Positions 4,916 to 63,200 of a stretch of DNA of 64,000 nucleotides are shown piece by piece. A model generated the notes under the pieces. It saw nothing but the letters and a program-made list of their open reading frames with translations. It was not told where the DNA came from and made no database searches. The stretch comes from Paraspadella gotoi (Eukaryota; Animalia; Chaetognatha), in assembly GCA_051294375.1 (NCBI GenBank), contig CM119264.1, positions 27,229,340 through 27,293,339 on the forward strand, given 5' to 3'. Positions within the stretch are counted from its first letter, which is position 1; each line of letters begins with the position of its first letter. Both the position numbers and the translations under genes were made by a program.

Positions 4916-4970
4916 TTGTAAGAATGATGGAGGCCTTAAACCACCAAAGCCTGTCCAAAGTCAGGGGCAA
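4916..4970 (+). ncRNA. Degenerate type-P5 twister ribozyme-like motif
   Basis: GA-UGG-[AGGCCU]-UAA-ACC-AC-CAAAG-CCUG-UCCAAAGU-CAGG. P4, T1 (CCA/UGG) and T2 (AC/GU) can pair; P2 is broken. Confidence 0.45.
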
Positions 4971-5913
4971 GATAGCTTATTTATTTAATGAATGGATATT
5001 TTTTATTGGTTGTACCAATTTCATAGTAATATTGTAATTTTGATAGCAAGAATAAAAGCATTAAAATCGAACTTTTTAAAAAAAAATTTTTTACCTGAAA
5101 GTAGACTACAAGACTAAAGTTTTGTACCCCCGCCGCTATTAAATTAAATTTCATAGAAGATTTCTAATATAGGTATGGGTCAAAATATTCAGAAAATAGC
5201 AATAAAATAAATATTTTCAAGGAAATTAGTGTTGTCTCACGGCGATGCTCTTTTGCTGGATTCTGTTTCTCTTCTTTTCCGCTTTCGATTTTCGGTTTCA
5301 ACTTTTATTCCTTTTTCTTTTGTTTCTTTTTTATTTTTTTATTTTTTTCTTTTCTGCATAAACAAAGGTTGGCATCGGCCATTCGTCCGTCCGTCCGTCC
5401 GTCTGCACGCCGCCATCGTCGACGCACGATTCCACGTTTCCCTTCCGGTTTCCGTCCGGTTTTCGTCCGGTTTTCGCTTTCCGGACGACCACGCTGTCCC
5501 ACGTTTATTTTGTTCGTTAAGGGTGGAAAAAGTCTTAACCGGGATTTTGTTTTGCCGCCTTTCCGTTGCCTTGTAATTTATTATAATTTATTAACCATTA
5601 ATGCCGCTCGCTCTGTTATAGAATCGATCTAGAATCGGATTGTTTGAATCGGATTCTCACTGTGAATTTAGCTTGGAAAACGAATTTTTCGCCGTTTTAC
5701 TGTTAGTTTTTTTTTTCCGCATTCATGCCCAACCACAAAGAAAATGCATGTAAAAATTTAAAAAAAATATTATTCTGTCACTTTACCGTTTTCTCGCACA
5801 AAGCTTATTCCCGCTTTTAATTGTAAAGTCCGGACGATCATCTACAACTCAGATGCTCTTCATGAAGTCTGCTTCTTACCTGACCTTCCTTTCCCCAGAT
5901 ATTCCCCCCTTTG

Positions 5914-60200: not shown

Positions 60201-63200
60201 GACTTGACAGTCCTCAAGATGCTCGACGACCGCATCGACGCTGCGAATATGAATGTTCGTCGAGCGGCGCGAAAGGCTTTGTTGAGGGTCTTCCGTTCCG
60301 TGCCGGACGTGGAGGACTTGTTGGAACAACTCAAAGAGAGGGAGGCTCAGTTCGTTTCCGAAGAAGATCAGAGATTAACGTTTTCTCTGTCGGAGCGTTT
60401 CTTTCCCTTTTTGCGACTCGCGAGGTTGGAAGATGGAGATCGAGAGAATCGCAGCTTTAACGGGGAAAGTGTTGCCGCGTTGGGTGAAGAGCGGTTCATG
60501 AGATTCGCCGATGCCGACAATCAAGGTTGTCAAGTGTATTTTAATAAAGGAGAAATTGCAACGTATATTAAATTATACTAAATTATTTTCTTGAATGAAA
60601 TTATAGATTTCGTGACTGTCCTCTGCAAATCGCTCTTGTCCTCGGGTTTAGTCCGAGAAGCGATCGTCTCCTCCTGCGACGAACTGCTCGACGTAGACTA
60701 CGACTTCGCCTTCCCTTTTCTTCCTCTCGTCGTGGAATCGGCGTTGAGCGGCGGCGAAGTGGATTCCAGTGCGCGGACTCTCCTCTCCGACCGGATCCGG
60801 GAATTCTTCGAGTCGGTGCCGAGTGAGAGTGGGACTCTGACGAGGAACGAGCGGAGAGCAACGGAGGCATTGCTCGGCGTCGTTGCGTACTTAAGACTGA
60901 GACAGCGCCCGCGTGTTGCCAGGTTTGTAGATGGATGACCTTTACAGAATCTGAGATTCGTTCTAACCAAATTTGTCGCATCCTCGCAGGTCGAGATCTT
61001 CCCCTCCTCCTTTCACCGACTGGGCCAACGAGTTTTGGCTCGAGTTGGATCACCTTTGCGTCTCCAAGGCTGCCCTCGCCTGTGGACAACCCTTTGCGGC
61101 AGTCATGTACTTGGAGTTGTGGGTAAAGCAACGACGAAAGAACGACGGCGTGGATGAAAATTCGCAGACGAAAAAGGATATTTTGAAAACGAATTCGGGG
61201 TAAGTGATTTTTATCTTGAAATAGAAAGTCCTTTACGTGGGCTTCGCGTGCGCAACTTATTTTTAAAAATACTGTGGTGGTATATTCACACCACCTCACG
61301 TCCACGATTCGTTCGGCCAATTACCATTGGCTCAGAGGGGGAACACACCATCCCAGGCCTTTTGTTCCATCCAAAGTCAAAACGACTTCCCTCTGCGTTG
61401 GCAAAGCGAGACCGTCCTAGGGTAACCGCGCCAGTGACTGGATGTATCACTGAGGGTCGGAAGCCCCCAAAGCCAACAGTGAGATGCCCCAACTCAATGG
61501 GCATCACAGGCAACCCGGCTGTTGCCATAATACTTTTTTTTTTGTAGATATTCTGGATCTGTGTCCTCTCATTTAAGCGCCGTATATGCTGCATTAGGGG
61601 AATCAGACTGTATTTATGGCTGTGGTTCCGAACTTGTAGCAAATCCCAAGGTAACTTTGCTGTGAATCCAGAATTTGCCTTTTTCTTACTTAAACCATAT
61701 CTATTCTTACATAGGACGCCGTTTCGCTTTACATTTTTGAGAAAAAGTGGGATTCGGCGGCGTCCTCGGCCAACTGCCTTCCTCCCCATGACGCCGCGGC
61801 GCCCCTCGCCAAGTCACTCGTCAACCTCAACCTCCCTAACGTCGCTTTCGATTTTCTGAGTCGAGCCGCGAATTCTTCCCGACTTTGCGCCGAAGAGTCG
61901 GAGATTTTTTACGAGAGCGCCATCAAGCTTTCCAAGTGGAACCTGGACATCGTTCGAAGTCAGTCTAGGTATGTCTAGGTGTGACAATATCAAGACTCGA
62001 GAATGACATTTTTCATCTGTTATTTTTAATAATTTTTTTTTCCTTTAAACAGCAAAGGCGCTTCTTCGAAGGCTCCTCCATTTTATCAGTGCATCTACAA
62101 TTGCCTCTCCGGAATAAAGATCGGAAACCTTCGAGCGGTGGAGGAGTTCGAAGGAGTGGCGATCCAGTCTCTCTTGGAAGATGTCAAGGCCTCGTCTCAT
62201 AGCATTCACTCGGTCAATCCCATCTTGACCAAAGCTAAAACATTCATGGTAATGGAACGATAGTGTTTTTCCAATTTTTCTTTTATTTTAATTTGTACGT
62301 TTCTTGGTGCAGGATATTTGCGAGCTACGTCGTTTGGCAATTGATCCCACGACGACGCCTTTGGAGTGGCGTTCCCTCGCCACAGCTTGGAAGGCGGACT
62401 GCGATTCCCTTCGGCGTCAAGACTTTTCAGTGGCCGACAAAATTATCGCCGTCAGGCTGGCCTGTTCCGATGCGGTTGAGAGGATCGTCGAGTCGTCCTT
62501 TTCTGACTCTCGCGAGAATTTTTCTAATTCGTGGCGCCGAGAGAAGTTGAAACTAGTCTTCGATCTCTGCAAAATCTCTCGAGATCAGGGATGGCATCAC
62601 GCGTCGAAAGGAGCCTTCGCCAGGCTTGGCCAGATGCTTGAGGAGGATCAAGGGGCGAGCCTTGTCCCTTACTGGGAGTTGGAGGAGCCTTCTCTCTATT
62701 GGGAAATGGGGGAAGAGGAAAAGGCTAAGTTTTTGTTAAGAAGAGTCATCGAGGGAGAGACGAAGAGCCAATCTACGCGACTCGTCGTCCCCCTGGCGCT
62801 GAACACGATGGGAGCCTGGCTTTCCGAAAGTAATATGGCGAGGTAAGTCTGGTTCATTCGCGGTTTCGCTTTAGTTTTCCTCAATTGTCGAATCTCTTTC
62901 TTAGTTCCACGACGATCAACGACGACTATCTGCAACGCTCCGTGGATATGTTAAAGCAGACCTCGGCACTCTACGAATCAAAGTCGGACAAAGAAATCCT
63001 CAGTCGCATCCACTTGACCGTGGCCAAGTTCGCCGACGCAGAGTATCAGAGTATCAAGGATTACATGGAGAGCAGTCTCTACGCGGAGAAGCGACAGATC
63101 ATGTCCGAACAAGAGGCAGAACTAGAGGGGTTGATACCCTTGCGCGGCTCGCTCGGAAAAGGTAAACTGAAATCGGCAAATGTACTCATCTGCTGATTTT

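What the first reader, a model, noticed from the sequence alone, without database searches (positions are those of the whole stretch)
4931..61422. P1 shrunk to a palindrome: possible dimer-activated twister ribozymes
Seen: between T1' and UAA each copy has only 6-8 nt. These are AGGCCU (perfect palindrome, 4931-36), UACCAGUA (41373-80, minus strand; one change from UACCGGUA), AGUCGGCA (55162-69; two changes from UGCCGGCA) and UCCUAGGG (61415-22; self-complementary with G-U pairs). Fully paired, they would leave a loop of 2 nt or less. Established: minimal hammerheads in Penelope-like elements and satellites use a palindromic helix to fold as dimers, and twister tolerates a very short P1. Inference: these twisters may form P1 between two copies, so that cleavage needs tandem or abundant transcripts while lone intronic copies stay harmless. 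I do not know of this being described for twister.
Basis: inference. Interest (0 to 1): 0.88.

Follow-up and report, generated by a model that had tools for sequence, protein, structure and literature searches.

The report
Palindrome-paired twister ribozymes in animal repeats
Short, highly repeated DNA elements in this animal genome carry the fold of a twister self-cutting RNA whose first helix is shrunk to a self-complementary stretch of 6-8 letters, which likely pairs between two copies so that tandem transcripts would cut best, a trick known for hammerhead ribozymes that I did not find described for twister; cutting itself is untested.

Summary
Observation confirmed. Four twister cores in type-P5 order lie at the stated places; T1 and T2 covary between families, and the core descriptor found nothing in 60 shuffles. 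They belong to three repeat lineages, two of them very high-copy. P1 linkers are 6-8 nt, against 15-26-nt hairpins in 21 of 22 phage linkers. Family B's majority linker is the window's UCCUAGGG; family A's is probably UGUCGGCA, self-complementary through G-U pairs.

Outside support: 8 of 54 published Naiad (Penelope-like) consensus sequences carry a P5-order twister whose linker begins with a palindrome closed through its centre (8 of 8, six different centres).

Against: one copy, and probably a subfamily, has a non-palindromic CCAG centre. Twister P1 is dispensable in print. Two base pairs plus a tetraloop fit a monomer. Tandem arrays, expression and a Naiad origin of these repeats are not shown.

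Best reading (0.55): the palindrome supplies a full P1 between two copies and boosts cleavage in tandem RNA. Strict dimer dependence with harmless lone copies is less likely (about 0.3). A new variant of a known ribozyme.

The parts
4922..4965 (+). Twister core C (P5 order): P2' with mismatches, GA 4926-27, T1' UGG 4928-30, P1 linker AGGCCU 4931-36, UAA 4937-39 (predicted cut 4937/4938), 3-nt P2, T2 AC, minimal P3, P4 CCUG/CAGG, L4 4954-61. P2 is damaged, so this copy is probably weak or dead.
4931..4936 (+). P1 linker of C, a perfect 6-nt palindrome
   Evidence: duplex -9.1 kcal/mol, rank 1 of 256 loops
4968..5024 (+). 3' tail of repeat C; a second copy without the twister lies at 47740-47791 on the minus strand
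   Evidence: (88% over 57 nt)
41261..41491 (-). Repeat copy A2 (ends approximate), antisense within a probable intron of an F-box gene
   Evidence: intron read by eye from GT/AG
41326..41389 (-). Twister core A2: GA 41385-84, T1' UGG, linker UACCAGUA 41380-73, UAA 41372-70, P2 ACAC/GUGU, T2 broken (AC against GC), one P3 mismatch, P4 CAGG/CCUG, L4 41337-30
41373..41380 (-). P1 linker of A2; centre CCAG is not palindromic
   Evidence: duplex -0.8 kcal/mol; same centre in a loose-end majority
55067..55277 (+). Repeat copy A1, family A (high copy); lacks the family's usual sequence 5' of 55101; ends in GTTGCCATA; flanks GTATAA / GTATCA; same strand as the ATM-like gene
55143..55225 (+). Twister core A1 with P5: P2' 55153-56, GA 55157-58, T1' 55159-61, linker 55162-69, UAA 55170-72 (predicted cut 55170/55171), P2, T2 GC, P3 hairpin, P4 55201-04/55213-16, L4 55205-12
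55162..55169 (+). P1 linker of A1; the family majority has T at the first base and is then fully self-complementary with G-U pairs
55136..55161 (+). Competing 5' hairpin in family A that covers P2', the catalytic GA and the start of T1' (predicted -7.4 kcal/mol in A1, -9.8 in A2)
61273..61529 (+). Repeat copy B (257 bp, very high-copy family), TGTGG...GTTGCCATA, flanked by ATAC on both sides (61269-72, 61530-33); sense within a probable intron of the ATM-like gene
61397..61477 (+). Twister core B with P5 (GUUGGC/GCCAAC): GA 61410-11, T1' CCG 61412-14, linker 61415-22, UAA 61423-25 (predicted cut 61423/61424), P2 with one C-A mismatch shared by the family majority, T2 GC, P3 hairpin, 3-bp P4, L4 61457-64
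61415..61422 (+). P1 linker of B, UCCUAGGG; identical to the family majority
   Evidence: duplex -11.0 kcal/mol, rank 7 of 256 loops

Best explanation
These are twister ribozyme folds in type-P5 order inside short high-copy repeats, and their 6-8-nt self-complementary linker likely forms helix P1 between two copies, so that cleavage would be much faster in tandem or abundant transcripts than in a lone copy. Shown: the cores, the short linkers, the high copy number of families A and B, and palindromes at the same position in Naiad twisters. Inferred geometry: in a head-to-tail transcript, the 3' half of copy n (UAA to P5) and the 5' half of copy n+1 (P5' to T1') read as an ordinary type-P1 twister. 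Its P1 is linker n paired with linker n+1, which works only if the linker is self-complementary. A lone copy or a monomer circle has only a strained 1-2-bp P1. Inferred role: cutting unit-length RNA out of multimeric transcripts of a non-autonomous retroelement, probably of Penelope-like origin, as double hammerheads do. I expect dimer enhancement rather than an absolute need.
For: Linkers are 6-8 nt, while 21 of 22 distinct linkers of phage P5-order twisters with perfect P2 and P4 are 15-26-nt hairpins with 3-9-nt loops; the exception is a back-to-back pair of P1-type twisters. Self-duplex ranks 1, 7 and 20 of 256 loops for C, B and the A majority. In a strand-swapped dimer model the linker pairs add -10.2 (B), -9.4 (C) and -6.8 (A1 window copy) kcal/mol, while closing the linker as a hairpin in a monomer costs +1.0 to +3.6 (nested model without pseudoknots). 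B's linker is the family majority in 4 of 4 runs. A versus B: pair-keeping changes at all four linker pairs, including the centre. Independent set: File S5 of PMC8557442 holds P5-order twister cores in the 3' tails of 8 of 54 Naiad consensus sequences (a ctenophore, two cnidarians, five bivalves). The first palindrome is closed through its centre in 8 of 8, with six different central tetramers (CGCG, GGCC, GTAC, CTAG, GCGC three times, TGCA). A second palindrome just before the cut site is perfect in 4 of 8 and has one central base in 4 of 8. Rough chance for four independent lineages is about 5e-6 (post hoc, uniform bases). Precedent: hammerheads with one pair plus a palindromic tetraloop cleave well only as dimers (PMC7229834; PMC6765202). 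A competing 5' hairpin in both family-A copies would disfavour the monomer core.
Against: The A2 copy has a C-A centre (duplex -0.8 kcal/mol, rank 99 of 256), and a loose-end majority of 11 contigs shows the same centre, so a non-palindromic subfamily may have spread. Twisters lacking P1 cleave at almost wild-type rate (PMC5408937), and over 2,600 tested twisters were 'essentially impervious' to P1 imperfections (PMC11662667). Invertebrate hammerheads with a stable helix III cleave well as monomers, although the axolotl two-pair variant was still helped by dimers. All three 8-nt linkers have the form Y-N-N-G at the centre, and two fit the stable YNMG tetraloop class (PMC5633025). In family B, 3 of the 9 listed variant rows fall on the central two bases (1.4-2.3% in X3, 0.4-1.0% in X5 of the same sample, at most 0.15% in X7). 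Tandem copies appear only as single-copy-depth joints. The Naiad twisters have two palindromes and 19-25-nt linkers, 3 of the 8 have a U-U mismatch in T1, and six motifs of the window repeats showed no link to any Naiad tail. Whole-monomer folds are not unusually stable (z -0.02, -0.73, -1.39, +0.22) and do not give the twister core as their minimum-energy fold (pseudoknots not modelled).
Confidence: 0.55

Rival explanations
1. Monomer-active twisters with a minimal P1: one or two pairs closed by a compact tetraloop (YNMG or CNNG type). The self-complementary centre in this genome is then incidental.
For: P1 is dispensable and tolerant. Centres CUAG and CCAG fit YNMG. The CCAG centre recurs in family A. 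Chance that at least 2 of 3 lineages have a Watson-Crick palindromic tetramer is 0.011, low but not extreme for a post hoc pattern.
Against: GGCC (copy C) and UCGG (A majority) are not YNMG. It does not explain 8 of 8 centre-closed palindromes in Naiad twisters. The hairpin form is predicted to be less stable than the open linker in all four copies.
Confidence: 0.27
2. The palindrome is selected for RNA-RNA pairing but not to switch on cleavage. Monomers cut well, and the pairing holds two transcripts or the two ends of a transcript together for reverse transcription, template switching or circularisation, like retroelement dimerisation signals.
For: It reconciles conserved palindromes with P1 being dispensable for catalysis. 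The two-palindrome Naiad linkers fit two bridging helices between two separately folded cores better than a strand-swapped core (inference).
Against: The palindrome sits exactly on P1, beside the cut site, as in double hammerheads where it controls cleavage. No data on these elements' replication were obtained.
Confidence: 0.13
3. The folds are inactive relics, or the palindrome acts at the DNA level (a protein-binding or insertion signal).
For: Copies C and A2 carry P2 or T2 damage. Family B has a C-A mismatch in P2 and a 3-bp P4. Rfam scores are far below the gathering threshold.
Against: Catalytic G, the UAA cut site and L4 are intact in all four copies, and T1 and T2 covary. The palindromes differ in sequence between families, which argues against one protein site. 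P2 and most P4 imperfections were tolerated in PMC11662667.
Confidence: 0.05

Closest known systems
Twister ribozyme, type P5 (class of Roth et al. 2014, recalled, not held; permutations read in passages of PMC5408937 and PMC10085705; Rfam clan CL00120)
   Same: Order P5'-P2'-GA-T1'-P1-UAA-P2-T2-P3-P4-L4-P4'-P5; L4 U-NNN-AA-GY; both pseudoknots covary.
   Different: P1 is 6-8 nt and self-complementary through the centre, instead of the 15-26-nt hairpin of phage examples. The Rfam models do not reach threshold.
Minimal type I hammerheads of newt/axolotl satellites, non-LTR retrozymes and Penelope-like pLTRs that cleave as dimers (passages of PMC7229834, PMC6765202, PMC7761336; Lunse 2017 seen only as cited there)
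   Same: A very short helix just 5' of the cut site with a palindromic loop, in short high-copy animal repeats; two copies can supply the full helix.
   Different: Ribozyme class is twister. In twister that helix is dispensable for catalysis in print, so dimer dependence does not follow automatically.
Twister folds in the 3' tails of Naiad Penelope-like elements (sequences in File S5 of PMC8557442; the main text does not mention twister, and reports no canonical hammerhead in Naiads)
   Same: P5 order and a palindrome directly after T1'; copy C shares the 3-nt P2, T2 AC/GU and P4 CCUG/CAGG layout of the mussel elements.
   Different: Naiads have two palindromes in a 19-25-nt linker and lie behind a GIY-YIG/RT ORF. 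The window repeats have one palindrome, no ORF and no shared motif found.
T-variant twisters of Perere-3 (RTE-type) in Schistosoma (passages of PMC8501958)
   Same: Twister in an animal retroelement with a weak or variable P1.
   Different: Those are type P1 at the element's 5' end, with the 5' strand of P1 supplied by the target-site duplication; 'dimer' and 'palindrom' have 0 occurrences in that text.

Membership tests
Twister ribozyme (type P5) | Conserved core: catalytic G and following A, UAA cut site, L4 with U-NNN-A-A | tested here: met
   All four copies
Twister ribozyme (type P5) | Pseudoknots T1 and T2 | tested here: met
   T1 in 4 of 4; T2 in 3 of 4 (A2 has an A-C mismatch); covariation between families
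Twister ribozyme (type P5) | Stems P2 and P4, ends in P5 | tested here: met
   A1 and A2 have 4-bp P2 and P4; B has 3 of 4 in P2, 3 in P4 and a 6-bp P5; C has a damaged P2
Twister ribozyme (type P5) | P1 as an ordinary closed hairpin | tested here: not met
   6-8 nt only, against 15-26 nt in 21 of 22 phage linkers. P1 is listed among the essential stems of the consensus but is dispensable for cleavage.
Twister ribozyme (type P5) | Rfam model score above gathering threshold | tested here: not met
   No hit on the whole window; partial twister-P1 matches of 20.8 and 16.2 bits against a threshold of 67.2
Twister ribozyme (type P5) | Site-specific self-cleavage | not testable with these tools
   Needs an in vitro assay
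Dimer-activated ribozyme (double-hammerhead logic) | Self-complementary short helix beside the cut site, conserved through its centre | tested here: inconclusive
   Met in B, C and the A majority; not met in A2 and a probable subfamily; met in 8 of 8 Naiad twisters
Dimer-activated ribozyme (double-hammerhead logic) | Poor monomer and good dimer cleavage | not testable with these tools
   Needs kinetics
Non-LTR retrozyme | Type I hammerhead in each unit | tested here: not met
   The fold is twister; no hammerhead hit in Rfam scans
Non-LTR retrozyme | Tandem arrays of 150-450-bp units | tested here: inconclusive
   Unit size fits (B is 257 bp). Window copies are solitary; back-joints occur only at single-copy depth, and my references did not span both ends of a full unit.
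Naiad Penelope-like element | ORF with N-terminal GIY-YIG and C-terminal RT upstream of the tail | tested here: not met
   No RT or GIY-YIG among 30 of 103 window ORFs scanned, including those beside B, A1 and A2. A non-autonomous or truncated derivative is not excluded.
Naiad Penelope-like element | Sequence kinship of the tail to known Naiads | tested here: inconclusive
   Seven exact motifs of the window repeats gave no matching Naiad tail; exact-string search only
Solo LTR / LTR retrozyme | TG...CA ends with a 4-6-bp target duplication | tested here: inconclusive
   B: TG...TA with ATAC on both sides; A1: TA...TA with a 5-of-6 flank match; A2's 3' end differs
tRNA-derived SINE | tRNA-like head with A and B boxes | tested here: inconclusive
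   A B-box-like GGTTCAATCC in family A only (box consensus recalled); ARAGORN finds no tRNA; not seen in B

The most novel reading that the evidence does not exclude
A class of obligate two-copy twister ribozymes in animal Penelope-like retroelements and their short derivatives. The palindromic P1 makes cleavage depend on tandem or paired transcripts, so twister took over, by convergence, the double-hammerhead role in the Naiad clade that was reported to lack hammerheads, while thousands of lone intronic copies stay uncut.
Probability: 0.3. Interest if true: 0.85.

Novelty: new variant of a known kind. Interest (0 to 1): 0.62.

Why it matters
Twister's P1 is conserved yet dispensable in the test tube, and its biological role is open. 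A P1 that can form only between two copies would give it a job: making cleavage sense repeat copy number or RNA concentration. It would also show that two unrelated ribozyme classes converged on the same palindrome trick in mobile elements, and would offer an answer to what replaces the hammerhead in Naiad elements. The test is cheap (monomer versus tandem transcription, with compensatory mutants). A two-part twister would also be a natural scaffold for concentration- or partner-dependent RNA switches.

Tried and rejected
No whole genome is held for this window, so the genome-wide test of linker variants could not be run; contigs of public runs gave only unphased majorities. No RNA holder was listed; run X9 is only guessed to be RNA, so nothing is concluded on expression. 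Summed contig depth (about 350,000 for A and 1.3 million for B in X3, against about 100 for flanks) shows high copy number but is not a count.

Pattern scans for short-P1 P5-order twisters elsewhere gave no convincing case: 41 viral loci, 41 viral loci, 81 metagenome loci, 15 viral loci in P3 order. Hits were chance matches, type-P1 twisters or long-hairpin twisters read in a wrong register. Family-specific patterns found 0 in prokaryote genomes and 0 in viral contigs.

The Rfam microRNA, Hsp83 and CrcZ hits are low-complexity artefacts. A homologue search of the PDCD2-like protein gave best hits of 30-44% and did not place the animal; I did not pursue taxonomy.

In one search the A1 helix coordinates were off by one, and those of B's P3 and P4 were off. 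These local helices cancel in the dimer-minus-monomer difference (B: -13.4 in both calls; A1: -10.5 in both). That difference carries a model bias of about 3-4 kcal/mol even without linker pairs, so I quote only the linker's share.

Six look-ups of earlier findings by place, sequence or words returned nothing. Lunse 2017 is not held, and the CHiTA supplement could not be read; it may list tested twisters with short closed P1.
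Full report
Setting. The window is a gene-dense animal sequence. Pfam finds Tudor, WD40, DNA polymerase epsilon B, proteasome, tubulin, ArsA, F-box, DEAD-box and PDCD2 domains in 11 of 30 ORFs scanned, plus a HAD hydrolase and one low-complexity hit. A long gene from about 51 kb onward matches ATM weakly (E 0.0075 for one ORF; none for a second). No whole genome is held.

Observation. The four linkers are at the stated places, between GA+T1' and UAA. Each lies in a twister core in type-P5 order. 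T1 is CCA/UGG in C, A1 and A2 and CGG/CCG in B. T2 is GC/GC in A1 and B, AC/GU in C, and broken in A2. A strict pattern gives 2 window hits and 0 in 100 shuffles. A relaxed descriptor gives 3 hits (it missed B) and 0 in 60 shuffles. Rfam misses them on the whole window and gives only partial twister-P1 matches locally.

What carries them. A1 and A2 are one family (87% over 130 nt). B is distantly related (E about 1e-5) and shares the GTTGCCATA end with A1. C is a third lineage whose 3' tail recurs at 47.7 kb. Contigs from public runs pile up on A and B thousands of times deeper than on the flanks; the tool warns that this is no copy number. B is 257 bp with ATAC on both sides and sits sense in a probable intron; A2 sits antisense in a probable intron (read by eye). 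No RT or endonuclease ORF was found beside B, A1 or A2. Back-joints that suggest tandem copies appear only at single-copy depth: 55247 to 55104 in 3 of 4 runs, and two joints in B. My references did not span both ends of a full unit, so arrays are untested.

Are the linkers palindromic beyond a hairpin's needs? Family B's majority linker equals the window's in 4 of 4 runs. Variants at the two central bases reach 1.4-2.3% in X3 and 0.4-1.0% in X5 (same sample) but at most 0.15% in X7; they make up 3 of the 9 rows listed. Family A's majority has T at 55162. The rest of that linker appears unchanged, inferred from place counts because 59 rows were hidden, which gives UGUCGGCA. A and B then differ by pair-keeping changes at all four linker pairs, including the central pair that cannot form in one strand. 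With the outer stem fixed, self-duplex energy ranks 1, 7 and 20 of 256 loops for C, B and the A majority, but 99 of 256 for A2. A2's CCAG centre recurs in a loose-end majority of 11 contigs (agreement 0.64). Within this genome alone the evidence is modest: the chance of at least 2 of 3 lineages having a Watson-Crick palindromic tetramer is 0.011.

Comparison sets. Phage P5-order twisters with perfect P2 and P4 have 22 distinct linkers; 21 are hairpins of 15-26 nt with loops of 3-9 nt, and one is a back-to-back pair of P1-type twisters. Scans for short-linker forms in viral contigs (41, 41 and 15 loci) and metagenomes (81 loci) gave no convincing case.

Naiad test. Earlier AI notes of this scan pointed to twisters in Naiad tails. 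I treated that as a lead and tested it on File S5 of PMC8557442, by exact-string searches and by reading 3 of its roughly 20 parts. I found P5-order cores in 8 of 54 Naiad consensus sequences: Mley, a Clytia entry (header not seen), Naiad-1_Movir, the entry before Bpla (Mgal by file order), Bpla, Mphi, Scon and Mmer. The search is not exhaustive, since line breaks and other L4 sequences are missed; Naiad_Bfor, read whole, showed none that I recognised. All parsing was by eye. In 8 of 8, a palindrome of 6-12 nt, closed through its centre, starts within three bases of T1', with six different central tetramers. A second palindrome before the cut site is perfect in 4 of 8 and has one central base in 4 of 8. 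T1 is perfect in 5 of 8 and has a U-U in 3; T2 occurs as GC/GC, AC/GU and CC/GG. Treating four lineages as independent gives about 5e-6 (post hoc, uniform bases). So a centre-closed palindrome at P1 is a real, recurring trait of animal retroelement twisters. Whether the window repeats descend from Naiads is not shown: motif searches found no shared tail, and they have one palindrome, not two.

Mechanism. Inferred: in a head-to-tail transcript, the 3' half of one copy and the 5' half of the next read as an ordinary type-P1 twister, whose P1 is one linker paired with the next. That needs a self-complementary linker and leaves a lone copy with only 1-2 pairs. A nested energy model gives the linker pairs -10.2 (B), -9.4 (C), -6.8 (A1) and -1.3 (A2) kcal/mol in a swapped dimer, and makes the monomer hairpin 1.0-3.6 kcal/mol worse than an open linker. 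Pseudoknots and special loop stability are not modelled. Both family-A copies can also fold a 5' hairpin over P2' and the catalytic G. A kissing pair of separately folded cores is the alternative geometry. The precedent is the double hammerhead of newt and axolotl repeats and Penelope-like pLTRs.

Against it. Twister without P1 cleaves at almost wild-type rate, and P1 defects did not lower cleavage in a large screen. The mini-twister had no covalent linker, so it does not settle whether a tight linker hinders a monomer. Two of the centres fit YNMG tetraloops, and the CCAG form cannot dimerise well. Whole-monomer folds are unremarkable. I put two-copy P1 with enhanced cleavage at 0.55, a monomer with an incidental palindrome at 0.27, pairing for another purpose at 0.13 and inactive relics at 0.05. 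Strict dimer dependence is about 0.3.

Literature seen. Named sections and passages: PMC11662667 (abstract, sections 32-33, passages; supplement unreadable); bioRxiv 10.64898/2026.07.22.740005 (parts 1-2 of 5 and passages; 'twister' 0 occurrences); PMC8557442 (passages; supplement parts 1, 8, 22, 23 and searches; 'twister' 0 occurrences in the main text). Passages only: PMC8501958, PMC10085705, PMC7229834, PMC6765202, PMC5408937, PMC13725137, PMC7761336, PMC5633025, PMC6154101. Roth 2014, Kosutic 2015, Lunse 2017 and Forster 1988 were seen only as cited. Nine searches on twister (and 62 on Naiad ribozymes) showed no paper describing dimer-forming or palindromic-P1 twisters, or twisters in Penelope-like elements; most hits were seen as listings only. 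Subscription journals are largely missing, and PMC7761336 mentions unpublished work on truncated twisters in RTE elements. A crystal of the rice twister with intermolecular dimers is mentioned as an artefact.

Verdict. A real feature and a new variant of a known ribozyme. Interest 0.62.

Noticed in passing
L083, L095, L236 (IMG/VR phage contigs): Two type-P1 twisters back to back; one 6-nt stretch is the 3' strand of the first P1 and the 5' strand of the second, and with the cut-site U it includes a 6-nt palindrome. A natural example of the tandem geometry proposed here.
   Followed up: partly
File S5 of PMC8557442, parts 8, 10, 11, 22, 23: Twister folds in P5 order with two palindromes in the P1 linker, in the 3' tails of at least 8 of 54 Naiad consensus sequences; not mentioned in the paper's main text.
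   Followed up: partly
window 10988-15507: Two tandem paralogues of an RBBP4-like WD40 gene, 72-85% identical at DNA level (name recalled from the sequence).
   Followed up: no
window 56137-57225: An intronless PDCD2-like gene lies on the same strand inside the span of the ATM-like gene, apparently nested in an intron.
   Followed up: no
window 33840-34470: An AT-rich insertion with inverted ends and telomere-like TTAGGG/CCCTAA-type repeats on both arms; possibly a MITE or foldback element.
   Followed up: no
window 3107-4460, 27143-27452, 28690-28926: Long (GA)n tracts that cause spurious Rfam microRNA hits; CT-rich and 31-bp minisatellites.
   Followed up: no
window 55340-55600: Sequence just 3' of copy A1 looks coding on the minus strand, inside the ATM-like gene span (by eye).
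   Followed up: no
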